Assembly: GCA_016187515.1 (NCBI GenBank)
Contig: JACPJN010000009.1
Location: 132,891 to 196,890, forward strand
Reading direction: 5' to 3'
Length of the DNA: 64,000 nt
Source: Candidatus Uhrbacteria bacterium
Lineage (GTDB): Bacteria; Patescibacteriota; Patescibacteriia; GWA2-47-26
Shown piece by piece: positions 3,524 to 56,257 of this stretch (positions are counted from its first letter, which is position 1; each line of letters begins with the position of its first letter). A model generated the notes under the pieces. It had not been told where the DNA came from, did no database searches, and saw only the letters and a program-made list of their open reading frames with translations. Position numbers and translations under genes: made by a program.

Positions 3524-5872
3524 TCACAAGCGCAGCCGACGCAACAGTTGGGCGTTAAAGGCCACGATAACCGTGGAAAGCGACATCAATATTGCGGCAA
3601 AGGCCGGCGCCAGAATAATGCCGAGTGGCAGAAACGCGCCCGCGGCCGCCGGAATCGCAAAGGCGTTATATCCGGTTGCCCAAATTAAATTTTCCACCAT
3701 TTTCCGGTAAGTCGCCCGCGCGAGTTTAATAATCCGCACAATATCGCGCGGGTCGCTTTTGATTAGCACAATGCCCGCGGATTCGATGGCCACATCAGTG
3801 CCCGCGCCTATCGCGATTCCCACATCCGCCGCGGTAAGCGCCGGCGCGTCATTAATGCCGTCCCCGACCATCGCCACCCGCATCCCGCGCTTTTGCAGCT
3901 CCTGAACTTTCTCCACTTTTTGCTCCGGCAACACTTGCGCAAAATATTCATCAATTCCAAGCTCCTTTGCCACCCACTCCGCTACCGGTTTTGCGTCGCC
4001 GGTTATCATTGCCACTTTCACTCCCATATCATGAAGCACGTGCACTGCCGCGCGCGACTCTTCGCGAATAATATCGGCTACTCCGAATGCCGCGACAGTT
4101 TTATCATCAGCAATGAGATATATCACAGTTTTACCTTGTGCCTGTAGTACAGTAATGTCTTTTGACAAAAGTTCCATACTTGGAACTATGGAACTTTTTT
4201 CTGGAGACGCGGAAAGTAAATTTTCTCCTCCCACCCGCACCATTTTACCATTTACAAAACCCTCTACTCCACGTCCTGGCAATGCTTTTACATCCGCCGC
4301 TTTCGGTATTGTCAAGCCGCGCTCTTGCGCGGCCTTAACAATCGCTTTGGCAATCGGATGCTCGGACTCGCGATCCACCGCCGCCGCCAGCGCCAACAAT
4401 TCATTCTGCGCGGACTGTGAACTGTGAACTGATGACTGTGAACTCACTAGTATATCAGTGACACCGTATTCGCCACGGGTTAATGTTCCGGTTTTATCAA
4501 AAAGCACTATGTCAATCTTTCGCGCCAACTCCAGCGCCAGTTTCTCGCGCACCAGCAGCCCACTGCGTGCCGAAAGCGTAGTGGAAATTGAAGCGACGAG
4601 CGGCACGGCCAATCCCAGCGCGTGCGGACAGGCAATGACGAGCACGGCCACCACACGGGTCAGCGCTACCGCGATTCCGGCATCAAGCGCTAACCATGCC
4701 ACGACTGTAACTGCGCCCACCGTAACCGCGATAATTGTCAACACCAGCGCGGCTTTGTCCGCCAGCGCTTGCACGCGGCTGCGCGAGGCCTGGGCCTGGG
4801 CCACGAGCCGCATAATACCCGCGAGCGCGGTTTGCTCGCCGACTTTGGCCACGCGCACTTTAAGCGCGCCTTCGCCATTGATTGTCCCGGCAATCACCGG
4901 ACTGCCCGGTTTTTTGTCAACCGGTTTTGACTCGCCGGTAATCATGGATTCATTCACGCTGGAAACACCCTCAACAATTTCTCCGTCCGCCGGCACCTTG
5001 GTACCCGGCCGCACAAGAACAATATCACCAACACGTAATTCTGAAACCGGTACGATCTCAATACCTTCATTCATAACCCCCCTATCCCCCCTTATCTTAA
5101 GGGGGGTATTTGTTGTGTCTCCCTCCCTTAAGGTAAGGGAGGGCGGGGGTGGGTTATGCATTGCAATCCGCTCCGCCGTATCCGGTAAAAGCTTTGCCAA
5201 CTCCCGCAGCGCGCCCGAAGCATGTCCCACTGCCGCCATTTCAATCCAATGGCCCAAAAGCATGATCGTAATCAGCGTGGCAATTTCCCAAAACAGCGGC
5301 TCGCCAATTGGCCAAAACACCGTGAGCACGCTATACGAATACGCCACCGTTATAGCCAGCGCGATAAGCGTCATCATCCCGGGCAAACGATGCTTCAGTT
5401 CCGCAATCGCGCCCCGGATAAACACCCAACCGCCGTAGAAAAAAATCATACTCGCCAACGCGAGCGTCAAATACATGTGTCCTGGAAATTCCGGAAAGTG
5501 CACGCGGAACAACTTCTGTACCACGTCAGCGTACGCCAAAACCGGCAAGGTCAGCGCCAAACACACCCAAAACCGTTGCTTGAACATATTCACACTATGC
5601 CCCGCATGTCCCGACGCTTCGGTCGGGATCCCGACTTTACGTCGGGACTTGTCCACCAATTTGTCATTTCGAGGGAGCGCGGCAACCGAGAAATCTCTAC
5701 CGCCTTGCATACCACGGTGTAGAGATTCCTCACTACGTTCGGAATGACGAATTGGTTGCGGCCGATGATGGCTACAATAATAATGCATCACCCCTTGCGC
5801 GTCCTTTTCCGCATACTCGGCCACCATCCCGCATAATTCACATTTTTGTCCTTTAGGAATTTCGTGTTTCAT
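3524..5872 (-). CDS. copB: Copper-translocating P1B-type ATPase, CopB-like (CPH motif, His-rich N-terminus)
   Basis: DKTGTLT phosphorylation motif; CPH in the TM6 segment [11 protein letters not shown]; [10 protein letters not shown] hinge; N-terminal CxxC (CELCGM). Carries three in-frame palindromic inserts. Confidence 0.9.
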
Positions 5873-7100
5873 AATCTCTTAAGAGTTTAGCCACTCCCAG
5901 CGCGGTTCCATCGTCTGTGATTTGCCGGCGCACGTTGACTCCCGATACCTTCGCTTGTATGGAAACCATGCGGACATCACGCGTAATACCGCCGTCAATC
6001 ACCAGCGTACGCGGACGAATTGGCAGCTTTTTTAAATATCCATCCACATCTTTGGCAATATACGTGAGCGCCCTATCCAATTTATTGACATCATGTAAGA
6101 CCTTGTCTATTGCGGACCCGCTTCCTTCAATTTTTGCCTCCAGCGCGAATTGTGGACGCCGCGCGCCGGGCATAAGGGTGGTAAAAAACGGCTGCCTCAA
6201 CACATACTTCGACCCTAGTGATTGCACCAAAAACGTTCCTGTGCCATAAGTGACTTTGGTAGTACCTGGACTAACCCCTACTCCATACATACTGGCTTGC
6301 TGATCGCCGCATACCGCACGCACCGGCAAACGTGCGCCAACCACCTCATGGCGCAAAACACCGAATTTTGACTGTGATGGGCGCACTTCCGGCAGTATCG
6401 CGCGCGGCACACCAAATATCTCGAGCAACTCATCATCCCACTTTAAAGTACGGATATTATACAAAAGCGTGCGCGAAGCATTAGTCCAGTCAGTCAAATG
6501 CGGCCGGCCTTCAAGCAGATTCCATAAGATCCAAGTGTCCACGGTGCCGAAAAATAGTTCACCACCCCTAACCCCTCCTCGGCGAGGAGGGGAAACGATT
6601 CGCTTTCCTCCCCTGCCCGAGGGTAGGATTAAGGAGGGGTGGGAGCGATTGCTAACCACATTCCTTAAAATCCACCCCACCTTTGTCGCGGAAAAATACG
6701 GATCAATAGCCAGTCCGGTTTTACCGCGCACCTCGTCGCTAAGAGACGGACGCCGTCTCTTAGCGACGGCACACTCTTTCGCGGTCCTTTTATCTTCCCA
6801 AACAATCGCGGGATAAATCGGTTTTCCGGTTTTGCGATTCCACACGATTGCGGTTTCTCGCTGATTGGTAAGACCGAAGGCGCGCAGTGATTTTAGCGGA
6901 ACTCGGCTTGCCCGCACTGCAGTGCGCAGCACTTGTTTGCTGACTGCCAGGAGCTCGGAGGGCGATTGCTCAACGAATCCCGGCTTTGGATGCGTTTTTC
7001 TAATACGCGCATACGCGCGTCCCACAATTTCAATACTCTGCGAAAAAACCAAGGCCTTAATTCCGGTTGTACCTACGTCAAGCACCAAATAATATCTCAT
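5853..7100 (-). CDS. FGGY-family carbohydrate kinase (glycerol kinase-like) with in-frame GC-rich insert
   Basis: N-terminal YYLVLDVGTTGIKALVF, then TNQRETAIVWN and GTVDTWILWNL, all typical of GlpK/FGGY. The insert encodes SGRGGKRIVSPPRRGGVRGG. Confidence 0.7.
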   Translation of the reverse strand: MRYYLVLDVGTTGIKALVFSQSIEIVGRAYARIRKTHPKPGFVEQSPSELLAVSKQVLRTAVRASRVPLKSLRAFGLTNQRETAIVWNRKTGKPIYPAIVWEDKRTAKECAVAKRRRPSLSDEVRGKTGLAIDPYFSATKVGWILRNVVSNRSHPSLILPSGRGGKRIVSPPRRGGVRGGELFFGTVDTWILWNLLEGRPHLTDWTNASRTLLYNIRTLKWDDELLEIFGVPRAILPEVRPSQSKFGVLRHEVVGARLPVRAVCGDQQASMYGVGVSPGTTKVTYGTGTFLVQSLGSKYVLRQPFFTTLMPGARRPQFALEAKIEGSGSAIDKVLHDVNKLDRALTYIAKDVDGYLKKLPIRPRTLVIDGGITRDVRMVSIQAKVSGVNVRRQITDDGTALGVAKLLRDYETRNS

Positions 7101-10061: not shown

Positions 10062-10062
10062 A

Positions 10063-21106: not shown

Positions 21107-21230
21107 GCACCAAATTACAAGGAAATCCTAATCTCCAAATCACAAATTACAATTATTTGTAATTTGGAATTTGTGGTTTGGTATTTGTTTGTTTTTTGGG
21201 ATTTGTGATTTGTGATTTCTCAATTAGCAC
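21101..21230. repeat. AT-rich inverted/tandem repeats (caaattaca / tgtaatttg, tttgtgatttgtgattt)
   Basis: Direct read. Confidence 0.7.
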
Positions 21231-23761: not shown

Positions 23762-24580
23762 TCAAGTGATGTCGTGCTGATGCTCTCCCCAAGAGCAAAA
23801 TCCGCACTGACTATGATGCGCCGGCGACTGATCGCTCTGCAGTAGTCGAGCGGCGTTTTCGAATAATTGCCGAGCGCGCTTTATACTGGTTTCCATCCGT
23901 TTGGGCGTTATTTCAAACTGCACGACTCCATTCTCGCGCACTTCAATCGGGTGATAATACACTAACCATCCCACTCCTTTGGTTTTATAACCATTCTCGT
24001 GCAAAAGCCACTCGTAAATATCTAACTGGTGCTGATAAAATCCGGAAGAATCCTCTTTTGGCGCGTACCCGCGGGTTTTGTAATCAAGCGGTACGTAATA
24101 GCGTGCCAAATTCCTTTTACTGCTCCCCTCTCCCCCGTGTGGGAGAGGGCTAGGGTGAGGGGATTCAGTAACCACCAAACAATCATCCAAAAGTCCGATG
24201 AGTTTCGTGTTGAGTTTTTTATCAAAATAGCGCAGACCACCAGTGCGCGCGCGCCAGCCATTCAGTAATTTCTGGTCAGCGAGCAGCTTCCCCTCCACTT
24301 TTCCGCGGATTTCCGGCGGTAACCCTTCCTTTGTTCCGCGAAACTTATCAAAGTAAGTTTTTATAACACCATCCATTCCTCCCGGAAGTGAAGGGAAAAT
24401 GGTTTTTGGACGATGCACGCCCATTTTAAGCTGTAACCAAAAACACCGCGGACATTCTTTAAAAAGCGAGAGCGTGGAGGCGGAAAGCTGGATAAATCGT
24501 CCAACCTCACGGTCATTGCGAGGAGCTTTCATTGCTCCGCCAAGCGGTAACCTTCCATTCGTTCCCATAGGGTTATTCAT
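23762..24580 (-). CDS. PD-(D/E)XK nuclease superfamily protein with Cys cluster (Cas4/RecB-like fold), carries in-frame palindromic insert
   Basis: N-terminal CPRCFW; LLDDCLVV...VPLDYK fits D...ExK; C-terminal CGFCSW. Insert encodes SPHPSPLPHGGEGSS. Confidence 0.5.
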   Translation of the reverse strand: MNNPMGTNGRLPLGGAMKAPRNDREVGRFIQLSASTLSLFKECPRCFWLQLKMGVHRPKTIFPSLPGGMDGVIKTYFDKFRGTKEGLPPEIRGKVEGKLLADQKLLNGWRARTGGLRYFDKKLNTKLIGLLDDCLVVTESPHPSPLPHGGEGSSKRNLARYYVPLDYKTRGYAPKEDSSGFYQHQLDIYEWLLHENGYKTKGVGWLVYYHPIEVRENGVVQFEITPKRMETSIKRARQLFENAARLLQSDQSPAHHSQCGFCSWGEHQHDIT

Positions 24581-24900: not shown

Positions 24901-26103
24901 CTATTGCGTAGGTATATACTGCCATGGATTAAGCCACTGGTCAAGTTCTGTTTTTGATTTCACATATCCACGAAGATCCAGACGCGTACCTTTATGAATT
25001 CCGAAGTGCAGGTGTTTGCGCTCGCCATCGGTCTCGCTCGTGCCACCCGCACCCAACACACCAATTATGTCACCGGGCGCAACATATTCACCTACGCCCT
25101 CTTTCTCCCCCTCCTGGAAAGGGCTCTCCCCTTTTTTCTCCCCCTCTCCCCTTGTGGGAGAGGGCGGGGGTGAGGGGTCAATTTTCAAATGCCCATACAC
25201 CACCGTAACCGCTTGATCACCGAGCACGCACTCCTGCACTACTACTCCCCCATAGCCATCCGCAGTGCGTTTTTCACGGATCGTCCCACCACAGAACGCG
25301 CGCACCTCCACGTCCCGATCCTTTTCTTCATCCGACACTTCAAAATCCACCGCAGTATGGTAACCGGAAAAACGTTCGGGCTGCACCGGAGAATTTTCTG
25401 GAGCAACTTTCAGTCCAAACGGCTTTTTGGTAACGCGCGCGGCGGCACGATCGATCGGCGCACTGAAACTCACGCGATCATTGTGGAATTGAATGCTTTG
25501 GAAAAATTTTTCAAACTCCTCTTTGGGGAGATCTGGATTGCGTCCGAACACGTAAAATACGCCCGGACTGTTCTTTGCGAAGCGCACATCCGTAACCTCA
25601 TGAGTTTCATTTCGCCAGGACGGCTGATATGGAAAATCCGCTACCCCTTTTTTCTTACGAATCGTGTAGCGCACGGCAGCGTGTCCCTGCGCTTCCAACT
25701 GTGCGCGCTCCAAAATATCCACGGTACGCAGGGTAAGAAAATCGCTCGCCTCAAAATAACGGATAAAAATCTGGGAAAGCTCCCGCGCGGGCATTGCCGC
25801 CTGCACCGGTCCATAGATATTCAGCGCTTCAATCTCCGGCACATATTCCGCCTGCCATGTACTCGGAAGCTCGGCGGAAAATCGAAACACCGGATTAAAC
25901 TCCGAAAAATCTACTCGAATTAAAGCAGACGATTGTTCTCGTGTCGCTTCTTCACTCTCCGGCAATTGTCCCAAATTCTCACGGCCGTGAGAATTTGGGA
26001 CAATTAGAACTGGGGTTGTAGTGGTTTTCCCTTGCTCTTGTGGCTGCCCCGCACAGCCAGACCCGAGCAAAATAATGACTATAAAAAGTAAAATAAATCT
26101 CAT
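24901..26103 (-). CDS. M23-family metallopeptidase lipoprotein with in-frame GC-rich insert
   Basis: Lipobox GSGCAG; M23 HxH (HLHFGIH). Insert encodes SPPPSPTRGEGEKKGESPFQEGEKEGVGE. Confidence 0.8.
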   Translation of the reverse strand: MRFILLFIVIILLGSGCAGQPQEQGKTTTTPVLIVPNSHGRENLGQLPESEEATREQSSALIRVDFSEFNPVFRFSAELPSTWQAEYVPEIEALNIYGPVQAAMPARELSQIFIRYFEASDFLTLRTVDILERAQLEAQGHAAVRYTIRKKKGVADFPYQPSWRNETHEVTDVRFAKNSPGVFYVFGRNPDLPKEEFEKFFQSIQFHNDRVSFSAPIDRAAARVTKKPFGLKVAPENSPVQPERFSGYHTAVDFEVSDEEKDRDVEVRAFCGGTIREKRTADGYGGVVVQECVLGDQAVTVVYGHLKIDPSPPPSPTRGEGEKKGESPFQEGEKEGVGEYVAPGDIIGVLGAGGTSETDGERKHLHFGIHKGTRLDLRGYVKSKTELDQWLNPWQYIPTQ

Positions 26104-26779: not shown

Positions 26780-26900
26780 CAGTCCCCTCCCCTTAGATTA
26801 AGTGGGGTTGGGTGGGGTTACGCCTGACCGCTTGCCTGCTTGTCCGCCTCTGGCGGGCCTTTGGCACGGCCTCTGGAGGGAAACGGAGAACAGAACTTAT
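26780..26900. repeat. GC-rich mosaic palindromic element, intergenic
   Basis: cccctccccttagattaagtggggttgggtgggg plus gtccgcctctggcggg, shared with the 29290-29320 element. Confidence 0.7.
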
Positions 26901-28610: not shown

Positions 28611-28745
28611 GAGCGACAACCACTCCTTCTCCCACCCCCTCTAACTCCCCCTCGGGCAGGGGGAGAAACCTCCTTGAAAAGGAGGGGGGACTTTTTAATT
28701 TCCCCTCCTCTTTGAGGAGGGGTTAGGGGTGGTGAGAGAGTTCTT
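28611..28745. repeat. GC-rich mosaic palindromic element (ccaccccctctaactccccctcgggcagggggagaaacctcc; cccctcctctttgaggagggg)
   Basis: Direct read; a related copy sits at 29228-29290. Confidence 0.75.
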
Positions 28746-29094
28746 TGATAATCCCGGCGATTACCTCGCCAACATTCTCACATACATCATTGTCGGTAAA
28801 TCGAAGCACGCGAATTCCTTGGGCTTCAATGAACTTCTGCCGTTGTGCATCCCGCCGCTTCGCTCCCTCCTGATAATGACTATCCCCATCCAGCTCGACG
28901 ACCAATTTTACCCTGGGACAATAAAAATCGACCACATGAGGGCCGATTCCTTGCTGCCGACGAAATTTATACCCTTCCACATTACTCCCTCGCAGATAGT
29001 ACCAGAGAATTTTCTCACTCCGTGTCATTCGACTACGAAGTTTTTGACGCGTGGATTTTTGTGCGTTCGGGTTAAACAATTTTACCATAACCAC
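28723..29094 (-). CDS. DUF559 (Vsr-like) endonuclease-domain protein
   Basis: GYKFRRQQGIGPHVVDFYCPRVKLVVELDGDSH...RDAQRQKFIEAQGIRVLRF matches the DUF559 pattern. Confidence 0.75.
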   Translation of the reverse strand: MVMVKLFNPNAQKSTRQKLRSRMTRSEKILWYYLRGSNVEGYKFRRQQGIGPHVVDFYCPRVKLVVELDGDSHYQEGAKRRDAQRQKFIEAQGIRVLRFTDNDVCENVGEVIAGIIKELSHHP

Positions 29095-29330
29095 CCCTTA
29101 ATCCCCTCCTTGGAAAGGAGGGGAAATCTTAACCACCCCTTAATCCCCTCCTTGGAAAGGAGGGGAAATCTTAACCACCCCTTAATCCCCTCCTTGGAAA
29201 GGAGGGGAAATCTTAACCGCCCCTTCTCCCACCCCCTCTAACTCCCCCTCGCCTGCCCGCCTCTGGAGGGGGCAGGGGGAGAAACCTCCTTGCCTGTCCG
29301 CCTCTGGCGGGGAAAGGAGGGGAAATCAAA
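29095..29330. repeat. Three tandem copies of a 42-bp hairpin unit (cttaaccaccccttaatcccctccttggaaaggaggggaaat), then a GC-rich palindromic segment
   Basis: Direct read. Confidence 0.85.
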
Positions 29331-35293: not shown

Positions 35294-36619
35294 CTATTGA
35301 GCCGGCGCTGGCACAGGCGCGGGCGCGGTTTCCCCAAAGGGATTGGCTCCCTCTGGTTGCGCCGGTTTTTCAAGCGCCTCGAATTTTTGCTGTAGCCGTT
35401 CAATGCGCTCCAAAACATTGCCCGGCACGGCGCGGCGCTTGCGTTCACTGTCAAAAATCAAATTAAACATTTTCTGTCCCAGCTCGCGCTGGATCGCTTC
35501 CATGGTCTCGCGCGCCACGCGGTATTCTCCGTCCCGTAAGGCCTCTTTAACCGGTATTAACAGATCATCCAGCTGCGTTTTAAGTTCCGGATCTTTAACG
35601 CGGCGAAGCGGCTCAATAAACCCGCGCATCATCTGCAGCGCACCGTTTACGTCGCCGGGCCAGCCGGGCTCATGAAACGCGTCCTGAAGAATACCGCGCG
35701 CATCCTCATACTCTCCCGCTTGATAAGCCGCTTTGGCTTCCGCGTATTTGGCGGCAAAATTCGCCATGATCGTATTGCACTCCTCCCGGCTAAACACCTT
35801 ATCCACCCATTTCTGTTTACAAAGATTCTTGGCGCGATTCAGGTCGCGCAAAACATTATTAAGCTCCTTCGGGAGTTCCACGGCCTGCCGAATCCGATTG
35901 ATCTCTTCCCAAAACTCTCCGGTATCTCCGCACTCTTCTCCCTCGAGTACGTCTTTCATGGCATCGTTATCCGTAGCCGCGTTTAATTGCGTCTGACACT
36001 GGGTTAGGCGTTCCTTAATCGCGTCCAGCTTAACCAGTTCATCTTGAGAACCTTTAAGGCGCACCAGTTGCTTGCGCACTTTCGCTGATTCCCGCAACTG
36101 ATCGCGCCACTCGCGCAGCCGGTCTTGTTTCCACCGCGCGGTATCTTGCCCCTCACGCTGCTCATGATCATCATCCTTCATCTCCGGCCTCGACTCGCCC
36201 GGACCCGCGTCCTTTAATTCTCCTTGCGGCGGATAATTACTGCATGGGCCGGGCATCTCCACTCCATTTACTCGACAGGTCTCCTTTACCGGCTCTTTCA
36301 CTTCCAAACCCGGCTGCGGGACCGGTGGCTGCCCTTCTACGGCGGGGGGCTGGGGTTGCACTGGCTGCGCGGGCTGTGTAAGTTCGGCGGACGGCGCTGG
36401 CGGCGTCACGGTTTGCCCTTGATCTTGGGCAATCAAATACCCGGGCTCCGGAAGCAGCTCGGATAAAATCGCCCCCTGCTGCTGCGCCGCGCTACCCAGC
36501 TGGATTGACCCGGAAAGCAGAAATAACGCGGTGGCGGCCAAAACGCTGCCCGCGATTTTAATCGTCTTTTCCTTTACGTCGCCACGATGATAGTGGCAAA
36601 AATAACAGAGATTGCGCAT
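35294..36619 (-). CDS. Secreted/anchored coiled-coil protein, hypothetical
   Basis: N-terminal TM, Pro/Gln-rich linker, long charged helical region. Confidence 0.45.
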   Translation of the reverse strand: MRNLCYFCHYHRGDVKEKTIKIAGSVLAATALFLLSGSIQLGSAAQQQGAILSELLPEPGYLIAQDQGQTVTPPAPSAELTQPAQPVQPQPPAVEGQPPVPQPGLEVKEPVKETCRVNGVEMPGPCSNYPPQGELKDAGPGESRPEMKDDDHEQREGQDTARWKQDRLREWRDQLRESAKVRKQLVRLKGSQDELVKLDAIKERLTQCQTQLNAATDNDAMKDVLEGEECGDTGEFWEEINRIRQAVELPKELNNVLRDLNRAKNLCKQKWVDKVFSREECNTIMANFAAKYAEAKAAYQAGEYEDARGILQDAFHEPGWPGDVNGALQMMRGFIEPLRRVKDPELKTQLDDLLIPVKEALRDGEYRVARETMEAIQRELGQKMFNLIFDSERKRRAVPGNVLERIERLQQKFEALEKPAQPEGANPFGETAPAPVPAPAQ

Positions 36620-36625
36620 ATAACT

Positions 36626-36686
36626 TAGAGTTTAGAGTTTAGAGTTTAGAGTTTAGAGTTTAGAGTTTAGAGTTTAGAGTTTAGAT
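36626..36686. repeat. Tandem 8-nt repeat (agagttta) x about 8
   Basis: Direct read; between the coiled-coil gene start and the GT4 gene end. Confidence 0.9.
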
Positions 36687-36687
36687 A

Positions 36688-37818
36688 TTATAGCACACCC
36701 TTGTCCACAAGCGAAGTGTATAACTTTTCGGTCTCCGCCACCACTTTATCCCAGTCAAAATACCGCTTAATAAAGCCCAAGGCCAGCTTCCCTTTCTCCC
36801 GCACAATTTCCGGGTGATTGATTAGTCCGACAATCTTTTCGGCCAGATCGCTGACGTTCCCCACTGCAAATGGCACTCCGGAATGGTCAATGGCTTCCAG
36901 ATTCTCCGGGATATTGGAAATCAAGACGCATTTTCCGAAACTCATGGCTTCCAAAATCGTCAGTGATAATCCTTCGGACTCGGAAGGATGCACATAAAAA
37001 TAGGCGTGCGCGTAAAGCTGCTTCAGCTCGTCTCCGGTTTGATAACCGGTAAAAATAATCCGGTGATCTGCGGCTGCCAACTGTTTCAGGTACGCGCTGT
37101 AATCCGCGGTAAAAGAAGGCGCCCCCACAATAACCAGCTTCATCTCGCCCTTGACTTCCTCCGGAACTTGTCGGTAGGCCTCGATCAGATAGTGAATTCC
37201 TTTATGTTTAATCAGACGCGCCACGGTGACCAAATAACCATTTTTCTGCAGTCCCCATTGTTTAAGCGCCGCGCTGGATTCCATTTTGTGAATTTCTACC
37301 GCGTTGGGAATATAATGAACATTTTTTTTGTATGCTTGCCGGCAATATCTCACAATTGAATGTGAGACGCCAATCGTGGTATGCGGAATATGCGTGGCAC
37401 ACCACTCTCCGATGCGCAGCACGAACCGCGCCCAAAACCCCCACTTGGCATGAAACCGATCAATGGAATGAAACGTCACTACGATTTTAGCGCGCGTAAA
37501 AAGCCGAGGAATCCAGGATAAGAGCGCCGGGCCGACACCGTGGAAATGGATGATGTCGTACCTAGAGCGTAGAGCATAGAGCGTAGAGCATAGCGTAGAG
37601 GAAATCGTGCCTAAGTGTTTGGTTGGAATTTCCGGCACGCGCGTGAGTTTCACGCCATTCCACATATCATCTTTGGTGGCCACATATCTTTTACGCACAA
37701 ATACCGTAACCTCATGCCCGCGCTTCGCCAAGCGCGTAGATAATTCCTCCACATGCCGCTCCACTCCCCCGTCCCGATAGAAAGGTATGGCCTTCTGTCC
37801 AATGAATGCTATTTTCAT
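36688..37818 (-). CDS. Family 4 glycosyltransferase (GT4)
   Basis: C-terminal EGLSLTILEAMSFGKCVLISN resembles the GT4 E-x7-E region; N-terminal Rossmann-like fold. Confidence 0.8.
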   Translation of the reverse strand: MKIAFIGQKAIPFYRDGGVERHVEELSTRLAKRGHEVTVFVRKRYVATKDDMWNGVKLTRVPEIPTKHLGTISSTLCSTLYALRSRYDIIHFHGVGPALLSWIPRLFTRAKIVVTFHSIDRFHAKWGFWARFVLRIGEWCATHIPHTTIGVSHSIVRYCRQAYKKNVHYIPNAVEIHKMESSAALKQWGLQKNGYLVTVARLIKHKGIHYLIEAYRQVPEEVKGEMKLVIVGAPSFTADYSAYLKQLAAADHRIIFTGYQTGDELKQLYAHAYFYVHPSESEGLSLTILEAMSFGKCVLISNIPENLEAIDHSGVPFAVGNVSDLAEKIVGLINHPEIVREKGKLALGFIKRYFDWDKVVAETEKLYTSLVDKGVL

Positions 37819-49373: not shown

Positions 49374-50978
49374 TTATTGAGTTATTACCGGCAGTTCCTC
49401 CGCGGCCACCTCCTCTGCCGTCGTCTCTTCAAGCTGCTCCGCCGCTTCGGTCTGCGCCGCGGATTCTGGCGCGGGCGCTGGCTCCACTACTGGCGCGGGT
49501 TCCACCGGTACCGGCGTTTCCACTGCTGGCCCGGCTTCCTCCCCCTCTCCCTCGGCGGGAGAGGGCGGGGGTGAGGGGGCGCTGACACTATCCCCCTCTC
49601 CCCCGGCGGGAGAGGGTTGGGGTGAGGGGGCACTTGCCTCGCTTGATTTACTTGCTTCACTTGATTCACTGCTGCCACGCGGGGTCCCGCACGCGCCGGG
49701 CCGCACCACTACTCCGCCATTGCGCAGCGACACGCATGAAGGCGAACCGGTTACCTCATCATGCAGTGTAATCCCGGTCGGCCGCTCCGGACTTCCCACC
49801 GTCAAATCCCGCACTTGCAGCTGGCCATCTTGCGAAATACTCCAAACCCCGGAAATTCCGGCAATGCGTCCGACCTCAAGGATCGCGTAGCCATTCATGT
49901 TCAGATTATGCTCCGCCACCGTTATCAAACCGTCGGATCCTTGACTGGCGGTCAACTCATCCGGGCCATGCCAGTAGAAATTATTGACCAACATCATAAT
50001 CTGGCCATTTCCGCTCTCCCAATTTTCAAGCGCGATACCGATAACCTTCCCTGAACGCGCGGTCTTCATCGCATGACCCGCCAATGACGAGCTTACCAAA
50101 TAATCACCAACGCCAATCGCGCCGTTTTCATCGGTAACTTTGACCGGCACGCGCCCGGAAAGAGCGACGGGCAAAGGATGACGGCCCTGTTTTTGTATAT
50201 CACCGCCAATGGTCTGGACCGGTGATCCGGAAATCACGCCGAATATCTTCGCGCTATATGATTCTTGGGACTTCCCGAGTATGGCAATGGTCTCTCGTCC
50301 ATTTTCCTCGGCAATAAGACCGGTAAACGGATCAACTCTCGTGGCCTCATACGTAAAATAGGCATCGGTCAGCGCCACCACGTCCCCCACCTCTACATTT
50401 TGTTCGGTTTCATACCATTCCGCAAGGTCGCCGGCGCCATTATTGCAAGCCACGAGCGCTTCGGTCGTATCGGAAGCCGCGTCAAGATCAGATCCGGAAT
50501 GACATACCCCATTGGTGGTCGCGGTTGAATTAAAATTCACCGACGTTATTCCGGCCGGTGTTACGGTAAACTTGCTGTTATTCACGTTAATCGCGTTATC
50601 CCAACCGCTGCTGATAAACAGACCGGATGAACTCACCGTACCGGTTCCGGCTTCCGTCATACTGCCAACACTAATACCGGTGGCGATGAGATTATTGGTG
50701 GTGGAAGTGGCCGTGATATTGGCGATATTTAGAACAGTATTCGTGCTGTTGTTGGTGGTGGAGGCAAAAGTGGCATTGAGGTTTAAGAGGTTAGAACCAG
50801 TAGCGCCTTCCGCCGTAATCAGGGTAATGTTGAGCGCGTCCACATTGGCAGTGGCGGTGGTGTCGCCCGAGCCGATCGTGACCAGATCAGCTGTCGGGGT
50901 CGCATCGCCATCCAGATTAATGGTTTGTCCGTCAATAATGGCCTCACGCCTCCCGAGGCCAAAAACAGATCGCCCCAC
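49374..50978 (-). CDS. C-terminal part of a giant repetitive Thr/Ser/Gly-rich surface protein (frame-disrupted); contains two in-frame GC-rich hairpin inserts
   Basis: Repeats LNITLITAEGATGSNLLNLNATFASTT; inserts encode SAPSPQPSPAGGEGDS and SAPSPPPSPAEGEGEE. Confidence 0.45.
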   Translation of the reverse strand: MGRSVFGLGRREAIIDGQTINLDGDATPTADLVTIGSGDTTATANVDALNITLITAEGATGSNLLNLNATFASTTNNSTNTVLNIANITATSTTNNLIATGISVGSMTEAGTGTVSSSGLFISSGWDNAINVNNSKFTVTPAGITSVNFNSTATTNGVCHSGSDLDAASDTTEALVACNNGAGDLAEWYETEQNVEVGDVVALTDAYFTYEATRVDPFTGLIAEENGRETIAILGKSQESYSAKIFGVISGSPVQTIGGDIQKQGRHPLPVALSGRVPVKVTDENGAIGVGDYLVSSSLAGHAMKTARSGKVIGIALENWESGNGQIMMLVNNFYWHGPDELTASQGSDGLITVAEHNLNMNGYAILEVGRIAGISGVWSISQDGQLQVRDLTVGSPERPTGITLHDEVTGSPSCVSLRNGGVVVRPGACGTPRGSSESSEASKSSEASAPSPQPSPAGGEGDSVSAPSPPPSPAEGEGEEAGPAVETPVPVEPAPVVEPAPAPESAAQTEAAEQLEETTAEEVAAEELPVITQ

Positions 50979-51346
50979 ATTAAGGAAGTGGTGCCCAACG
51001 CATTGGAGTCCGAGGTAGAAGGAGCAAGCGCGCTGGAGGTGAGCGTCAATTCAGCAGTGCCGCCAATGCCCAGAATCAAGTTGGTGGTAGCGTTGATGTC
51101 GGTGTCCCAAGTGTCGCCAATGCTGATGGCGGCGGAAGCCACGGTGCCAGTGCCGGCTTCGGTCAAGGTGCCAATGTCCAGACCCCGCACGGTCATGGCA
51201 TTGGTGGTCGAAGTGGCCGTAAACGCGGCAATGTTGGCAACCCTGAAAGTACTGGCGGTGGTCGCGGCAAAAGTGGGGTTCAGGTTCAGCAAGGTGGAGC
51301 CGTCTGCGCCTTCCGCCGTAATCAGGGTAATGTTGAGCGCGTCCAC
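50819..51346 (-). CDS. Middle fragment of the same surface-protein gene (lies within a ~503-bp tandem duplication)
   Basis: Shares DALNITLITAEGADGSTLLNLNPTFAATT and GTTSLMWGDLFLASGGV with the flanking fragments. Confidence 0.4.
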   Translation of the reverse strand: MDALNITLITAEGADGSTLLNLNPTFAATTASTFRVANIAAFTATSTTNAMTVRGLDIGTLTEAGTGTVASAAISIGDTWDTDINATTNLILGIGGTAELTLTSSALAPSTSDSNALGTTSLMWGDLFLASGGVRPLLTDKPLIWMAMRPRQLIWSRSARATPPPLPMWTRSTLP

Positions 51347-51434
51347 ATTGGCAGTGGCGGTGGTGTCGCCCGAGCCGATCGTGACCAGATCAGCTGTCGG
51401 GGTCGCATCGCCATCCAGATTAATGGTTTGTCCG

Positions 51435-53198
51435 TCAATAATGGCCCGCGTGGGTCAAGGTCACATCCCCGTTGTCAAAGTTGATCACGCCTCCAGAGGC
51501 GAGGAACAGATCGCCCCACATTAAGGAAGTGGTGCCGAGCGCGGAACCGTCGGAAGTGGACGGCGAAAGAGCAGTGCCATCAAGCTGCAGCTCATCCGCA
51601 AGCGTTCCGGCCGTAACCACGCCAAAATCCAGCCGCCCATCTACGCTGGTGGCGGCATTCACATCAGTGGCCACCCAAGTCAGCCGCCCAAATTCGGTCT
51701 GGGTCCCGGCATCATTGGAAAGACGCAAGGTCAGATAGGCCTCGTCATTGTCCGCCATGGTCGCGCGATCGCCCTGTAAAATTGCCGCCTGTACCGCGGC
51801 ATTGTCAGTCGTGTTGGTCAGCACCGCCGTGTTTCCGGCCAAGGACACGGTAAGCAGACCGTCGGCCGTAATCGCGCCGATGCCAGTTGCCGCCCCGTCG
51901 GTTGAAATATTCCAGTCCGAAGAATCAATCGCCACTGTAGCGCTGTCGTTGCCAAGCGTGGTGGCGCCGGTGGAGGAAAGCGTGGTAAACGCGCCGGAGG
52001 ATGCCGTGGTCGCGCCAACCGAGGCATTGTTGATGGTGCCTCCGGAAATTGTTATGGCGCCGGTGACGGTCAGATTGCCGGTCGTACCCGCATCAACGAT
52101 CGTCATTAAATCATTTCCGGACGTATCTTCAATCGTAAGCGTGCCGGTCGCGCCTTCAAAAATCCGCACTCCGTCAAACAGCGCGAAATTGCCGCCGATT
52201 GAAAACGCATTGGTCAGCTGGGCATCGGAAACATCCAGGCCGGTCGTAATCGCGCCGGTAGAGGATCCCAGAATCTCCAAAGCGGTGGTCAGCGTGCTGT
52301 CGTCCGCGTTTTCCAGCACGACCAAACGCTCGGTGGTTCCGCCGGTGGCGGACTCGTTTTTAATCACCAGTCCGCGTTGGGTAGTCGCATCAGTTGACGC
52401 GTCATTGGTAAGCGACAGCGTAAGGCCGTCAAACGCGGCAGCGGTCGCGCCGGTATTCCATGAAAAAGTCGTCGCGTATTCAGCCATGGCCAGCGAAAGC
52501 GCCGCGTCCGGCGCGGTAAGGTCGTCCCAGGCGGACGAACCGCTTCCGCCCACCAGATTGGCATACGCTCCGGCGTGCTCGGACACGCGAAATCTATTAG
52601 TGGTGGAATCAAAATAAATTTTGCCTTGCCCGGAGGCGGAGACGGCGGGCGCGCTCATGCCTTGCAAATTGAAAAAGCTGGCGATATCAATTCCGCCAGC
52701 CGAATTAAGCTGAAGCACATTGTTGGCCGAAGTTCCGGCATGCGCGCCGTCAACCGTGTCCGCGTTAATCGCAAATCCCGAGGATACGATACGCTGGCGC
52801 GGAGTCAAGGTTTCGGAACTGGAAAAATCAACGTTCGGGGAAATCCCGATTTGGAGATAAATACTCGGGTCAGTGTGAAAATCCAAATTCAGCGCGTCAA
52901 AGCCGGCAGCGGTGTCACCGATAAGCGCGTTGAACACTCCGCTTTGCACGGTCAGCCCCACCGTTGCCGGCGTGCCGGACGGCCAAAGCTGGGTTCCGCC
53001 CGCCGCGTCAGACCAAATGGAAAATCGGAAATAATAGGTGGTGCCTGATGAACTGCCCAGGAGAGTTCCGCCCGCGTCCGTTAGCCGCCCTTGATAGCTT
53101 AAAATACTCGGCGGCGCGGCAAAAGACGCCCTGGCTATGCTAAAAATTACCGCCAGGGCTATCCCGAAAAATACGGCTCGCAGTGAGCTTTTCCGCAT
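51435..53198 (-). CDS. N-terminal part of the giant surface protein (signal peptide MRKSSLRAVFFGIALAVIFSIARASFA)
   Basis: Signal peptide and T/S/G/A-rich beta-repeat composition. Confidence 0.5.
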   Translation of the reverse strand: MRKSSLRAVFFGIALAVIFSIARASFAAPPSILSYQGRLTDAGGTLLGSSSGTTYYFRFSIWSDAAGGTQLWPSGTPATVGLTVQSGVFNALIGDTAAGFDALNLDFHTDPSIYLQIGISPNVDFSSSETLTPRQRIVSSGFAINADTVDGAHAGTSANNVLQLNSAGGIDIASFFNLQGMSAPAVSASGQGKIYFDSTTNRFRVSEHAGAYANLVGGSGSSAWDDLTAPDAALSLAMAEYATTFSWNTGATAAAFDGLTLSLTNDASTDATTQRGLVIKNESATGGTTERLVVLENADDSTLTTALEILGSSTGAITTGLDVSDAQLTNAFSIGGNFALFDGVRIFEGATGTLTIEDTSGNDLMTIVDAGTTGNLTVTGAITISGGTINNASVGATTASSGAFTTLSSTGATTLGNDSATVAIDSSDWNISTDGAATGIGAITADGLLTVSLAGNTAVLTNTTDNAAVQAAILQGDRATMADNDEAYLTLRLSNDAGTQTEFGRLTWVATDVNAATSVDGRLDFGVVTAGTLADELQLDGTALSPSTSDGSALGTTSLMWGDLFLASGGVINFDNGDVTLTHAGHY

Positions 53199-54698: not shown

Positions 54699-55745
54699 TC
54701 AATCGCCGTTGAATTCTTCCCGTGCCACCTCCCAAAGTTGCGGATAGCCCTTAAGTTTTAGCCACCGCCACCATTCCGCTCCCCAGCCATAAATTTCGTC
54801 CAGGCCGGTGCGCCGCGCGTAGTCAATTGCCGCGCGCATTTTTTCCGGCGACATCACTGCCAGCTGTTCCTCAATCGGCATATTTAAAATTCCCTCCGGC
54901 GCCCAGGCCTCCAGCTGAAGCTCGGTGATAATGAAACGCCCGGCCCACGGTTTTAGGAGATTGGCTTTGCGCGCGTAAAACGAGGGGGACATTGGATAGG
55001 TTATAAAACCCCAGATCGGACTCCAGACCTCGCGATACAAACTTGTTCCGACGATATCAGCCACCAGTGCGGACTTTATTCCAGTGGCCAGCTCACCGGA
55101 TTCGGTCATCAGTATCGGCCGCGGATCAAGTGAGCGCGTAAATTCGGCCTCGCGGCGCACAAACGAATTCTTAATCGGCGGACAATCGCCAAACCACCCG
55201 ATAAATCCTTCGTTTTCCACTTGCCACACGTGAATGTTAGGGCGATCTTTAAAATGTTCCACCACTTCGCGCATCATCTTAAGCTGGGCTTCTTCAAACT
55301 GTTTCCGGTAAGGTCCAAGACGGATATCAAACATCCTGGCAAAAAGTGAACTGCGCTCCGGAAGCCAGGCGCGAGCCCAAGCGGGCGCCCGACATTCCGG
55401 CCAGCGCGGAAGTTTAAACCCAATCGCCGGCACGACCGTCACTCCCCTTTTTTCTGCCTCGTCGAACATCCAGTCGTAGTCATCAAACACAAACCTTCCT
55501 CGCTCCACCTCAATCTCATCCCAATTGATCCCGATGCGGATCGCGTCAATCTTCAAATCATCTAGAATTGCCAGGTACGTCTCGCGCCAATCCAGTCCCA
55601 GATACTCGGCGTAGGACTTGGTAAAAGTCGTACCCCAGACTATGTTTTCCGATGGTTTAACAGTGACAGGAATCACCAAATACAGGCCGACTACAATGAT
55701 AATTACCGTAAACGAAAAAATAATCCTTTTCATCCAACGGAACAT
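54699..55745 (-). CDS. Glycoside hydrolase, TIM-barrel (GH5/cellulase-like), signal-anchored
   Basis: HVWQVENEGF resembles the catalytic NEP region of clan GH-A. Family is not resolvable by eye. Confidence 0.55.
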   Translation of the reverse strand: MFRWMKRIIFSFTVIIIVVGLYLVIPVTVKPSENIVWGTTFTKSYAEYLGLDWRETYLAILDDLKIDAIRIGINWDEIEVERGRFVFDDYDWMFDEAEKRGVTVVPAIGFKLPRWPECRAPAWARAWLPERSSLFARMFDIRLGPYRKQFEEAQLKMMREVVEHFKDRPNIHVWQVENEGFIGWFGDCPPIKNSFVRREAEFTRSLDPRPILMTESGELATGIKSALVADIVGTSLYREVWSPIWGFITYPMSPSFYARKANLLKPWAGRFIITELQLEAWAPEGILNMPIEEQLAVMSPEKMRAAIDYARRTGLDEIYGWGAEWWRWLKLKGYPQLWEVAREEFNGD

Positions 55746-55767
55746 AAAATTCCAAATTACACTTCTT

Positions 55768-55822
55768 TCGTCATCTCGACCGAGGCCCCGATCGGAATCG
55801 GGGCGGAGTGGAGAGATCTCAC
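55768..55822. repeat. Left terminal inverted repeat of the GIY-YIG element (cgtcatctcgaccgaggccccgatcggaatcggggcggagtggagagatctcacc)
   Basis: Imperfect inverted match to 56124-56180; related to the termini of the copB insert at 5608-5750. Confidence 0.7.
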
Positions 55823-56115
55823 CCCTTCCAATCCTGCGACAAGTCCTTAAAGTTTGGATTTACTTTTTTAATTAAATCCACCTTCTTCTTTCTTGACCAT
55901 CGTTTAAGCTGTTTCTCGCGAGCAATGGCATCATATGCAGTCTCATACACTTCATAGTACACTAGTTTATTGATATTGTATTTTTTGGTAAACCCTTCCA
56001 CCGCTTTCGCTTTGTGCTGGGCCGTTCTAGCCGGCAATACACTCGTCATACCAATATAGGAAGTGGTGTCCCACTTATTCATCATGATATACACGCAATA
56101 CTGTTTATCCTGCAT
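55819..56115 (-). CDS. GIY-YIG nuclease-family protein (UPF0213-like)
   Basis: YCVYIMMNKWDTTSYIGMTSVLPARTAQH matches the GIY-YIG motif; 98 aa. Confidence 0.8.
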   Translation of the reverse strand: MQDKQYCVYIMMNKWDTTSYIGMTSVLPARTAQHKAKAVEGFTKKYNINKLVYYEVYETAYDAIAREKQLKRWSRKKKVDLIKKVNPNFKDLSQDWKG

Positions 56116-56123
56116 AGCATGAT

Positions 56124-56180
56124 GTGAGATCCCTCGACTTCGCCCCGACTGCGGTCGAGGCTCCGCTCGGGATGACCACG
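56124..56180. repeat. Right terminal inverted repeat of the GIY-YIG element (gtgagatccctcgacttcgccccgactgcggtcgaggctccgctcgggatgaccacg)
   Basis: Reverse complement aligns with 55768-55822 (shared ends GTCATCYCGA ... GAGRGATCTCAC). Confidence 0.7.
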
Positions 56181-56257
56181 TTGTTTGAATTTGAAATTTC
56201 GGTCATTGGTATTTGTTTGTAATTTGTGATTTGTAATTTGGAATTTCAAGAACTGCG

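What the first reader, a model, noticed from the sequence alone, without database searches (positions are those of the whole stretch)
55768..56180. GIY-YIG nuclease gene bracketed by about 55-bp imperfect inverted repeats; a related non-coding copy is inserted in-frame in the copB N-terminus
The 98-aa GIY-YIG ORF (55819..56115) is flanked by inverted repeats at 55768-55822 and 56124-56180. Their ends read GTCATCYCGA...GAGRGATCTCAC, with internal hairpins cccgatcggaatcgggg / ccccgactgcggtcgagg. The gene stop lies inside the left repeat.

An element of about 140 bp with the same terminal motifs (gtcatttcgag...cgttcggaatgac; gagaaatctctac / gtagagattcctc) and hairpins (gtcccgacgcttcggtcgggatcccgactttacgtcgggac) sits in-frame in the His-rich N-terminus of CopB at 5608-5750. 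It encodes [48 protein letters not shown].

I read the GIY-YIG unit as a candidate autonomous mini-element whose nuclease mobilises MITE-like derivatives. A GIY-YIG-driven palindromic-element system of this kind would be unusual.
Basis: partly seen in the sequence, partly recalled or inferred. Interest (0 to 1): 0.75.

Follow-up and report, generated by a model that had tools for sequence, protein, structure and literature searches.

The report
Ssn nuclease gene with hairpin repeats
A tiny GIY-YIG nuclease gene bracketed by inverted hairpin repeats in an uncultured Patescibacteria-like genome is real. It is a new example of the Ssn single-strand-DNA nuclease and repeat system described in 2025, so it is not a new kind of element.

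Summary
A 98-aa GIY-YIG ORF (55819..56115, minus strand) lies between 53-nt inverted repeats (55770-55822 / 56124-56176). They are 79% complementary and score 55, against at most 25 in shuffles. The gene's stop codon lies inside one repeat. A heavy-metal P-type ATPase gene carries an in-frame dimer of the same repeat class (5655-5756).

The system is already published. Chenal et al. 2025 (Nat Commun 16:2388) described the Ssn family: single-domain GIY-YIG nucleases of about 94 aa. Their genes are flanked by GTC-tagged hairpin repeats (NTS/SRM). They bind the hairpin only in single-stranded DNA and cut a few nucleotides 5' of it.

The window protein is 45% identical (E 3e-27) to the Neisseria gonorrhoeae SsnA orthologue, with the same spacing of catalytic residues. 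In 81 loci across many phyla the same unit flanks the gene, and its stem triplet covaries.

What this work adds:
- a Patescibacteria-like member whose long repeats escape the published search motif;
- an orthologous site in relatives that is empty, holds one solo repeat, or holds a 23S_rRNA_IVP gene. The module is therefore an insertion or replacement here.

Self-mobilisation by the nuclease is still unproven. Verdict: new member of a known kind, modest interest.

The parts
56124..56176 (-). Upstream hairpin repeat (SRM-like unit). On the gene strand it reads GTCATCCCGAGCGGAGCCTCGACCGCAGTCGGGGCGAAGTCGAGGGATCTCAC. The GTC tag faces away from the gene, and the unit ends 8 nt before the ATG.
   Evidence: Inverted-repeat arm; pattern match; outer ATCCC/GGGAT pairing and an inner 8-bp hairpin in the DNA fold.
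55819..56115 (-). ssn gene: a 98-aa single-domain GIY-YIG nuclease of the Ssn family.
   Evidence: PF01541 at 5.5e-15. 45% identity over 91 aa without gaps, E 3e-27, to the 94-aa N. gonorrhoeae SsnA orthologue. Y20, R30, H34 and E67 are invariant and Y9 is at least 90% conserved in 36 homologues.
55770..55822 (+). Downstream hairpin repeat (SRM-like unit), inverted relative to the upstream one: GTCATCTCGACCGAGGCCCCGATCGGAATCGGGGCGGAGTGGAGAGATCTCAC. It contains the complement of the gene's TGA stop.
5655..5756 (.). In-frame dimer of short SRM-like units inside the P-type ATPase gene: units 5663-5700(+) and 5719-5748(-), GTC tags outward, 18-nt spacer. The flanking 8 nt extend the palindrome.
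   Evidence: Folds as one long hairpin, z = -4.75. The closest homologues lack about 38 aa here.
5605..5651 (.). Twin GC-rich hairpin (GTCCCGAC..GTCGGGA / TCCCGAC..GTCGGGAC) next to the dimer and also read in frame. It resembles the inner hairpins of the long units. Whether it belongs to the system is uncertain.
   Evidence: (z = -3.9 and -3.3).
56232..56246 (.). Outer AT-rich inverted repeat, right copy (TGTAATTTGGAATTT). It is context rather than part of the ssn module, and it is shared with a relative's cassette at the same site.
   Evidence: Perfect 15-nt inverted repeat with 55747-55761 (I2); conserved in L099.
55747..55761 (.). Outer AT-rich inverted repeat, left copy (AAATTCCAAATTACA).
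56180..56206 (-). Relic of the first roughly 9 codons (ATGACCGAAAT.TCAAATTCAAA) of a 23S_rRNA_IVP (four-helix-bundle) gene. That gene occupies this site in relatives.
   Evidence: Alignment with L099; the L099 ORF matches PF05635.

Best explanation
The feature is an ssn locus: a gene for a single-domain GIY-YIG nuclease of the Ssn family (CDD cd10448) together with its cognate hairpin repeats.

Mechanism, inferred by homology to the characterised Neisseria and Wolbachia enzymes. The protein binds the repeat only when it is extruded as a hairpin in single-stranded DNA. Binding depends on the palindrome and on the C just 3' of it. The GTC just 5' of the palindrome is needed for cleavage. The protein nicks that strand a few nucleotides 5' of the GTC tag. 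It does not act on duplex DNA or on RNA.

Geometry here. Both GTC tags face outward. The predicted nicks therefore fall just outside the repeat-gene-repeat module, on opposite strands.

History. The module entered this lineage at an intergenic site where relatives have nothing, one solo repeat, or a 23S_rRNA_IVP gene.

The ATPase element. It is a non-coding dimer of the same repeat class, tolerated in frame in a variable linker.

Shown: sequence anatomy, family membership by sequence, repeat-gene association, stem covariation, and presence/absence at the orthologous site.

Inferred: the nuclease activity and its specificity. Also inferred, at roughly one chance in three, is that spread of the module and of the dimers depends on Ssn nicking followed by host repair or recombination. 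That would be a REP/RAYT-like relationship rather than classical transposition.
For: Family identity.
- 45% identity, E 3e-27, to the N. gonorrhoeae SsnA orthologue. That orthologue is 94 aa and lies in a cluster of NTS repeats.
- Y9, Y20 and E67 have the same 11- and 47-residue spacing as the Y6, Y17 and E64 that were mutated in N. meningitidis SsnA.
- It is a single GIY-YIG domain of 98 aa.

Repeats.
- All four window units read GTC-AT-YYY-CGA...AT-C. These are the tag and the 3' C that Chenal et al. found critical for cleavage and for binding.
- Upstream-forward plus downstream-inverted units occur in 45 of 81 loci. The opposite arrangement occurs in 7.
- Proteobacterial loci have the same layout.
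- Units number 352 in 454 kb of loci, against 16 after shuffling.
- Covariation: 108 of 135, against a permuted mean of 20.2 and maximum of 32, with 12 triplet types.

Gain of the module.
- The relatives keep the SLT-like and GH42-like genes adjacent, and none has ssn between them.
- The DNA not shared with relative L099 starts about 5 nt outside one GTC tag and ends about 8 nt outside the other.

Biochemistry and the published association: PMC11893778.
Against: - The published SRM search motif finds no unit in the window and matches in only 4 of 81 loci of this clade. The repeats here are longer (49-53 nt, with an extra inner hairpin) than the 20-35 nt motifs that were tested.
- The single arms are not more stable than shuffled sequence.
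- No enzyme from this clade has been assayed. 45% identity does not fix the specificity.
- Chenal et al. found that keeping the hairpin while changing its sequence abolished activity. It is therefore unknown whether this enzyme would act on the ATPase units, whose stems are TTC and TCC rather than CCC and CTC.
- Only two repeat sites occur in 64 kb. A Neisseria-like role in limiting recombination would have little to act on.
- No promoter-like site was found for the gene.
Confidence: 0.8

Rival explanations
1. One reading: an autonomous mini-transposon. The GIY-YIG protein acts as the transposase. It excises and reinserts the repeat-gene-repeat unit and MITE-like dimers such as the one in the ATPase gene.
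For: - The layout is IS-like with terminal inverted repeats.
- The module is absent from the orthologous site in relatives, and its boundaries lie within 5-8 nt of the GTC tags.
- Distribution across phyla is patchy at 51-76% identity.
- Homologues lie between sufB and sufC, and between gltA and lpxB.
- Dimers whose spacers resemble the gene's promoter region occur in Gastranaerophilales-like loci.
- An ORF about 98% identical sits in two different repeat arrangements.
Against: - GIY-YIG enzymes hydrolyse DNA and form no covalent intermediate. No strand transfer is known for Ssn (established knowledge of the superfamily).
- There is no target-site duplication at either element.
- The window has one gene and one dimer in 64 kb.
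- One homologue has the same downstream neighbours in all 10 places shown, of 24 contigs read, and the same upstream neighbours in 9 of them.
- The ATPase units are not derived from this gene copy.
- In the L016/L024 pair the highly similar segment is the ORF alone, not ORF plus repeats.
Confidence: 0.2
2. A host-serving (domesticated) function as in Neisseria. The nuclease cuts incoming or exposed single-stranded DNA at the repeats and so modulates recombination or natural transformation. The repeats next to the gene are merely its oldest targets.
For: - There is experimental evidence in N. meningitidis: knocking out ssnA raised transformation with NTS-bearing DNA about 5-fold.
- The gene shows stable single-locus inheritance in one gut lineage.
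Against: - There are only two repeat sites in 64 kb of this genome.
- The gene is missing in all relatives sampled at this site, which is unlike a conserved host function.
- Competence was not examined here.
Confidence: 0.2
3. RNA-level elements. The inverted repeats act in the transcript, as a 5'/3' stem, a stabiliser, a terminator or a translational control of the nuclease mRNA. The ATPase copy would be a coincidental palindrome.
For: - The repeats abut the ATG (8 nt away) and overlap the stop codon, so they would be transcribed with the gene.
- REP-type repeats are known to affect mRNA.
Against: - There is no Rfam match, even at E up to 5.
- No T-run terminator was found.
- The invariant unpaired GTC tag and the 3' C are explained by the protein's recognition of single-stranded DNA and not by an RNA stem. 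SsnA does not bind RNA.
- The same units occur far from any ssn gene and inside coding sequence.
Confidence: 0.05
4. A classical free-standing GIY-YIG homing endonuclease gene. It would cut an empty duplex target, such as a repeat dimer, and copy itself in by double-strand-break repair.
For: - The gene sits exactly between two inverted units, where dimers have a short spacer.
- ORF-only identity occurs between differently flanked loci.
Against: - The protein has no DNA-binding domain beyond the 98-aa catalytic core.
- Characterised family members do not cut duplex DNA.
- It is not in an intron, an intein or a phage context.
Confidence: 0.07

Closest known systems
Ssn nucleases with NTS/SRM repeats (Chenal et al., Nat Commun 2025;16:2388, PMC11893778)
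   Same: - Single-domain GIY-YIG protein of about 94-98 aa, 45% identical to the gonococcal SsnA orthologue.
- Same spacing of catalytic residues.
- Gene flanked on both sides by hairpin repeats with a 5' GTC tag, a palindrome that starts with AT, and a C after the palindrome.
- The upstream-forward, downstream-inverted layout is also seen in proteobacterial homologues.
   Different: - The host looks like Patescibacteria. This phylum is not mentioned in the paper's main text.
- The repeats are 49-53 nt with an extra inner hairpin, and they do not match the published degenerate SRM motif.
- There are very few repeats in this stretch of genome, against hundreds in Neisseria, Rickettsia and Wolbachia.
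- One dimer lies in frame inside a gene.
- Activity has not been tested.
CGTC-tagged REPs (Di Nocera, De Gregorio and Rocco, BMC Genomics 2013;14:522), including Neisseria dRS3 and Rickettsia RPE-4/RPE-6
   Same: - Short palindromes with an unpaired (C)GTC tag.
- Stems begin with A-T.
- They are often arranged as inverted dimers.
- They are sometimes found inside genes.
That paper reported no dedicated transposase for this class.
   Different: - The stems and loops of the ssn-flanking units are far longer than the 8-9 bp stems and 4-5 nt loops described.
- The tail is CTC(AC) rather than CCA.
- Only 2 of the 4 units have a C before GTC.
REP/REPIN elements with RAYT (IS200/IS605-like HUH tyrosine transposases)
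   Same: - A usually single-copy nuclease gene bracketed by inverted copies of the hairpin repeat that it recognises in single-stranded DNA.
- Non-autonomous singlets and inverted dimers lie elsewhere in the genome.
   Different: - The enzyme fold and chemistry are unrelated: hydrolytic GIY-YIG against HUH with a covalent tyrosine intermediate.
- The tag is GTC rather than GTAG.
- Mobilisation has been demonstrated or strongly supported for RAYT and not for Ssn.
GIY-YIG homing endonucleases (I-TevI type) and UPF0213 proteins (BH0048, PDB 1ZG2; EF2693, 1YWL)
   Same: The GIY-YIG catalytic core. UPF0213 structures are the nearest solved relatives by profile search (E 8e-7 and 9e-5).
   Different: - Homing enzymes carry separate DNA-binding domains and cut duplex DNA at intron-less alleles.
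- UPF0213 is a different subfamily with no known repeat association.

Membership tests
Ssn family (cd10448 GIY-YIG single-strand DNases) | Single GIY-YIG domain of about 90-100 aa with no extra domain | tested here: met
   98 aa. PF01541 covers residues 5-78 and there is no other Pfam or NCBIfam hit.
Ssn family (cd10448 GIY-YIG single-strand DNases) | Homology to Neisseria SsnA at E < 1e-10 (the paper's criterion) | tested here: met
   BLASTP 45% over 91 aa, E 3e-27, against the 94-aa ORF L096:1498-1782 of N. gonorrhoeae. tblastn gave 2e-17 in a 7.3-Gb database. That this ORF is the SsnA orthologue is inferred from its length and the surrounding NTS copies. The N. meningitidis protein itself was not available.
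Ssn family (cd10448 GIY-YIG single-strand DNases) | Catalytic Tyr, Tyr and Glu (Y6, Y17, E64 in N. meningitidis SsnA) | tested here: met
   Y9, Y20 and E67 align with them. Y20, R30, H34 and E67 are invariant and Y9 is at least 90% conserved in 36 homologues.
Ssn family (cd10448 GIY-YIG single-strand DNases) | Gene flanked 5' and 3' by SRM hairpin repeats | tested here: met
   GTC-tagged hairpin units lie on both sides. The same is true of 45 of 81 homologous loci.
Ssn family (cd10448 GIY-YIG single-strand DNases) | Repeats match the published degenerate SRM motif HGTCWYN(0-2)YYVSBRHN(0-5)WNVSBRGN(0-2)RNCYNB | tested here: not met
   0 matches in the window, matches in only 4 of 81 loci, and 9 matches in the 3.3-kb gonococcal locus used as a positive control. 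This motif is a search tool and not a definition of the family. The units here are longer variants.
Ssn family (cd10448 GIY-YIG single-strand DNases) | Assignment to CDD cd10448 and placement in the Ssn clade | not testable with these tools
   No CDD library or reference tree is available here.
Ssn family (cd10448 GIY-YIG single-strand DNases) | Site-specific cleavage of single-stranded DNA only, 5' of the repeat | not testable with these tools
   Needs biochemistry.
CGTC-tagged REPs (Di Nocera 2013) | Unpaired CGTC tag at one end, with a stem that begins A-T | tested here: inconclusive
   GTC followed by AT is present in all four units. The preceding base is C in two units (55769 and 5749), G in one and T in one.
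CGTC-tagged REPs (Di Nocera 2013) | 8-9 bp stem, 4-5 nt loop, CCA-like tail | tested here: not met
   The units are 30-53 nt with interrupted stems, and the tail is CTC(T)AC. Many homologous loci do have 25-nt units with 8-bp stems and 5-nt loops.
REP/RAYT (REPIN) systems | HUH/Y1 transposase and GTAG-tagged REPs | tested here: not met
   The protein is GIY-YIG and the tag is GTC. This is a functional analogy only.
Classical IS/MITE transposon | Terminal inverted repeats, plus target-site duplication, plus a transposase with strand-transfer chemistry, plus multiple copies | tested here: not met
   Inverted repeats are present. There are no direct repeats at the junctions of either element. The enzyme is a hydrolase. 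There is one gene and one dimer in 64 kb.
GIY-YIG homing endonucleases | Catalytic domain linked to a DNA-binding domain, located in an intron or a phage | tested here: not met
   98 aa with the catalytic core only. It lies in a chromosomal intergenic site between an SLT-like and a GH42-like gene.

The most novel reading that the evidence does not exclude
The repeat-gene-repeat module is an active selfish cassette. It would spread by a mechanism not yet described: Ssn nicks extruded hairpins just outside the outward-facing GTC tags, and host repair or recombination copies or moves the segment. That would make Ssn the long-missing mobilising enzyme of CGTC-type REPs, including intragenic ones such as Rickettsia RPEs. 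In Patescibacteria-like genomes the cassette would also compete with 23S_rRNA_IVP gene cassettes for the same AT-rich palindromic intergenic landing sites.
Probability: 0.2. Interest if true: 0.7.

Novelty: new member of a known kind. Interest (0 to 1): 0.3.

Why it matters
It extends the Ssn nuclease and hairpin-repeat system to an uncultured small-genome lineage. It shows that the published search motif misses a large clade: Patescibacteria, Melainabacteria, filamentous cyanobacteria, Omnitrophota, Ignavibacteria and planctomycetes. In that clade the stem triplet covaries while the GTC tag and the 3' C stay fixed. This gives a ready-made set of natural nuclease and target pairs for single-strand-DNA tools.

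The orthologous site occurs empty, with a solo repeat, with an IVP gene, or with the ssn module. Together with the in-frame dimer in an ATPase gene, this gives concrete material for the open question left by Di Nocera 2013 and Chenal 2025: does this nuclease propagate GTC-tagged palindromes?

Tried and rejected
- Rfam, at gathering thresholds on the window and on 10 loci and at E up to 5 on the locus, found no RNA family.
- NCBIfam gave no hit. A single-sequence search of the PDB gave no hit.
- Literature searches on GIY-YIG combined with inverted repeats, MITE, COG2827, UPF0213 or YhbQ, and on raw repeat strings, gave nothing relevant. The relevant paper surfaced only through dRS3 and CGTC-REP terms.
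- I considered that outward-facing GTC tags might distinguish this clade from an inward-facing Neisseria type. I rejected this: Aeromonas, Sinorhizobium, Shinella and Sphingobium loci have the same outward layout, so the gonococcal locus is the exception.
- I looked for more copies of the four units in the window by pattern search and short-word BLAST. There are none. The only other hits are a probable chance regex match at 55479-55530 inside the GH42-like gene and a decayed look-alike at 10137-10164.
- I looked for polymorphism of the locus in other samples. The five contigs compared, of 11 that carry the protein, are identical over the locus.
- The promoter and terminator scan was uninformative.
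- The paper's supplementary tables are not held, so its own list of homologues could not be checked.

Full report

Yes. The 98-aa ORF at 55819..56115 on the minus strand matches the Pfam GIY-YIG domain (PF01541, 5.5e-15). It lies between two arms, 55770-55822 and 56124-56176, which are 53 nt long and 79% complementary.

A local alignment of the two flanks scores 55. Shuffled flanks give a mean of 15.6 and a maximum of 25. A set of 124 equally spaced control pairs across the window gives a maximum of 23. The composite end pattern occurs twice where 0.00 matches are expected. The TGA stop lies inside the left arm, and the right arm ends 8 nt before the ATG.

The second element is also real. The ORF 3524..5872(-) is a heavy-metal P-type ATPase. 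Its homologues are annotated as Cu2+-exporting ATPases. It reads in frame through three parts:
- a unit at 5663-5700(+);
- an 18-nt spacer;
- an inverted unit at 5719-5748(-).

The palindrome extends to 5655/5756. As single-stranded DNA the dimer folds as one long hairpin (z = -4.75). An adjacent twin hairpin at 5605-5651 is also significant. The closest ATPase homologues that share the same N-terminal domain lack about 38 residues exactly there, in a linker that varies between homologues.

Two corrections apply. The ATPase units share with the ssn-flanking units only the motif class, GTC-AT-YYY-CGA...AT-CTC. BLAST detects no similarity between them. The 64 kb holds no further copies.

**2. 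What is it?**

*The protein family.* The protein has more than 7000 relatives, and the named ones among the best hits come mostly from Patescibacteria. I fetched 80 loci from one genome per species. They come from Patescibacteria, Melainabacteria, Nostoc and Calothrix, Omnitrophota, Ignavibacteria, Planctomycetota and others, at 51-76% identity.

*The repeat unit.* Across these loci the gene is flanked by a small unit of the form GTCAT-xyz-(GA)...loop...x'y'z'-ATC(TC).
- Strict matches number 352 in 454 kb, against 16 after shuffling.
- A forward unit lies just upstream in 54 of 81 loci, and an inverted one at or after the stop in 63 of 81.
- Both are present in 45 loci. The opposite orientation occurs in 7.

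*Covariation.* I ran a test that does not presuppose pairing. Of 135 GTCAT tags next to the genes, 108 have the complementary triplet followed by ATC within 60 nt. Permuting the triplets among loci gives a mean of 20.2 and a maximum of 32. Twelve triplet types are used. The unit is therefore a conserved hairpin with a fixed 5' GTC tag and a fixed 3' C.

**3. It is already described.**

Two papers cover it.

*Di Nocera et al. 2013 (PMC3733652)* defined 'CGTC-tagged REPs'. These include Neisseria dRS3 and Rickettsia RPE-4/6. Their stems begin with AT, and they are often found as inverted dimers and sometimes inside genes. The authors stated that these repeats 'apparently lack a dedicated transposase'.

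*Chenal et al. 2025 (PMC11893778)* made the link to a protein.
- The NTS repeat CGTCATTCCCGCGMAVGCGGGAATCYRG, and its broader class SRM, flank genes for a 94-aa single-domain GIY-YIG protein named SsnA (CDD cd10448).
- 71% of homologues have an SRM nearby, and 42% have one on both sides.
- SsnA binds the hairpin only in single-stranded DNA and cuts a few nucleotides 5' of it.
- The three nucleotides before the palindrome control cleavage. The C after the palindrome controls binding.
- Duplex DNA and RNA are not substrates.
- In N. meningitidis the enzyme lowers transformation by NTS-bearing DNA.
- The authors note that NTS-ssnA-NTS looks like an insertion sequence, and they compare it with RAYT/REP as a hypothesis.

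No later paper on the family is in the library.

**4. Membership tests.**

A PLSDB record labelled as a plasmid is in fact a gonococcal chromosome of 2.17 Mb. It supplied the Neisseria orthologue: a 94-aa ORF lying in a cluster of NTS copies.

*Tests met.*
- The window protein aligns to that orthologue at 45% identity over 91 residues without gaps, E 3e-27.
- Y9, Y20 and E67 correspond to the mutated Y6, Y17 and E64.
- All four window units carry GTC, then AT, and a C after the palindrome.
- The layout with GTC tags outward is the same in Aeromonas, Sinorhizobium, Shinella and Sphingobium loci.

*Test not met.* The published degenerate SRM motif finds nothing in the window. It matches in only 4 of 81 loci of this clade, while it finds 9 copies in the 3.3-kb gonococcal locus. 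The ssn-flanking units here are 49-53 nt long with an additional inner 8-bp hairpin. Taken singly, they are no more stable than shuffled sequence. I treat the motif as a search device and not as a definition of the family.

**5. How did it get here, and does it move?**

The protein and its locus are identical in the five Logan contigs compared, out of 11 that carry the protein.

Relatives with 66-73% identical GH42-like proteins keep the SLT-like and GH42-like genes adjacent. None has ssn between them. The spacer at that site takes three forms:
- about 30 nt in three loci;
- about 120 nt with one solo long unit in one locus;
- about 500 nt with a 23S_rRNA_IVP (PF05635) gene in four loci.

Locus L099 shares with the window both the AT-rich outer inverted repeat (window 55747-55761 and 56232-56246) and the first roughly 9 codons of the IVP gene. 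That relic lies at window 56180-56206(-). The unshared DNA in the window begins about 5 nt outside one GTC tag and ends about 8 nt outside the other. In this lineage, then, the repeat-gene-repeat module replaced an IVP gene. Its boundaries lie on the scale of the published cleavage offset. This is suggestive and not proof.

Other hints of turnover:
- A dimer downstream of a Gastranaerophilales-like ssn gene has a spacer that resembles the gene's promoter region.
- An ORF about 98% identical sits in two different repeat arrangements, with breakpoints at the unit tails.
- Homologues lie between sufB and sufC, and between gltA and lpxB.

Evidence against active transposition:
- There is no target-site duplication at either element.
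- The enzyme is a hydrolase with no known strand-transfer activity.
- The window has one gene and one dimer in 64 kb.
- One homologue keeps the same downstream neighbours in all 10 places shown, out of 24 contigs read, and the same upstream neighbours in 9 of them.

**6. Verdict.**

The system has been known since 2025, however, and the mobilisation step remains a hypothesis.

I rate this a new member of a known kind. There are two useful additions: a clade whose repeats escape the published motif, and an orthologous-site series that documents gain of the module. Interest is 0.3.

The most novel reading still open is that Ssn is the mobilising enzyme of GTC-tagged palindromes, and that it competes with IVP cassettes for AT-rich palindromic sites. 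I give this a probability of 0.2.

Noticed in passing
L099:740-1126, L102:3566-3928, L100 and L105 (same site); relic at window 56180-56206(-): At the orthologous SLT-like/GH42-like intergenic site, four relatives carry a small 23S_rRNA_IVP (PF05635, four-helix-bundle) gene flanked by AT-rich low-complexity inverted repeats. The window keeps the same outer repeats and the first roughly 9 codons, with the ssn module in place of the rest. Two kinds of small gene appear to use the same landing site.
   Followed up: partly
window 10059-10212, 19589-19758, 21091-21219, 36611-36700, 56181-56247: Intergenic AT-rich arrays of short tandem motifs (GAATTAGGT xN, TTAGAGT xN, AATTTGGAATTTG-like) are often arranged as inverted pairs. 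One pair is an empty palindrome (21091-21219). One brackets a GC-rich hairpin (19589-19758). One brackets a decayed GTC-tagged unit (10137-10164, GTCATTCCCCGCCCGTATCACAATCTCA). One brackets the ssn module.
   Followed up: partly
window 5077-5151, 6559-6642, 14061-14094, 19124-19241, 24124-24167, 25139-25182, 26783-26816, 28618-28735, 29088-29225, 49540-49634: A second and much more abundant hairpin repeat family (CCCCTCC..loop..GGAGGGG with G/C-rich tails) is present, including a 3x tandem of 42 nt at 29088-29225. Copies lie in frame inside the same ATPase gene (peptide [27 protein letters not shown]) and in the next ORF, 5853..7100 (SHPSLILPSGRGGKRIVSPPRRGGVRGGE).
   Followed up: no
L103:3850-4010: A relative has one solo long GTC-tagged unit at the orthologous site and no ssn gene. 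Its reverse complement reads GTCATTCTGAGGAGTCCCGCAGGCGCGGGACGACGAAGAATCTC.
   Followed up: partly
L016:2860-3440 and L024:356-936: Two species share an ssn ORF about 98% identical, but the flanking repeat arrangement differs. The same GCT-type unit is upstream in one and downstream in the other. Similarity breaks at the unit tails, which suggests that the hairpins are rearrangement hot spots.
   Followed up: partly
L081-L090, about 60 nt upstream of the ssn ATG: In a Gastranaerophilales-like gut lineage the sequence TGTTATAAT lies 6 nt before the ATG, between the upstream unit and the gene. This suggests an extended -10 promoter and a leaderless mRNA. The window locus has only 8 nt between unit and ATG and no such box.
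   Followed up: no
L089 and L090, alignment A1 columns 200-480: A tRNA gene upstream of ssn carries an insertion or duplication of about 180-240 nt within its 3' half in two of five samples. It could be an integrating element or an assembly artefact.
   Followed up: no
L111 (Azospirillum lipoferum AZO_p3), L109 (S. meliloti), L107 (Planktothrix plasmid): ssn homologues with their repeats lie between sufB and sufC, between gltA and lpxB, and between an MmeI-type enzyme and DISARM drmA. These are insertions into operons or defence islands.
   Followed up: no
window 50754-51572: Two adjacent direct repeats (190 nt at 92% identity and 88 nt at 78%), spaced about 500-540 nt apart. This is probably an internal duplication in a gene.
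   Followed up: no
PLSDB records NZ_CP119140.1, NZ_AP026896.1 and others: Several 'plasmid' records of 2-5 Mb are really chromosomes and have almost no annotation. This was useful here for reaching the Neisseria ssnA locus, but it is a caveat for plasmid statistics.
   Followed up: no
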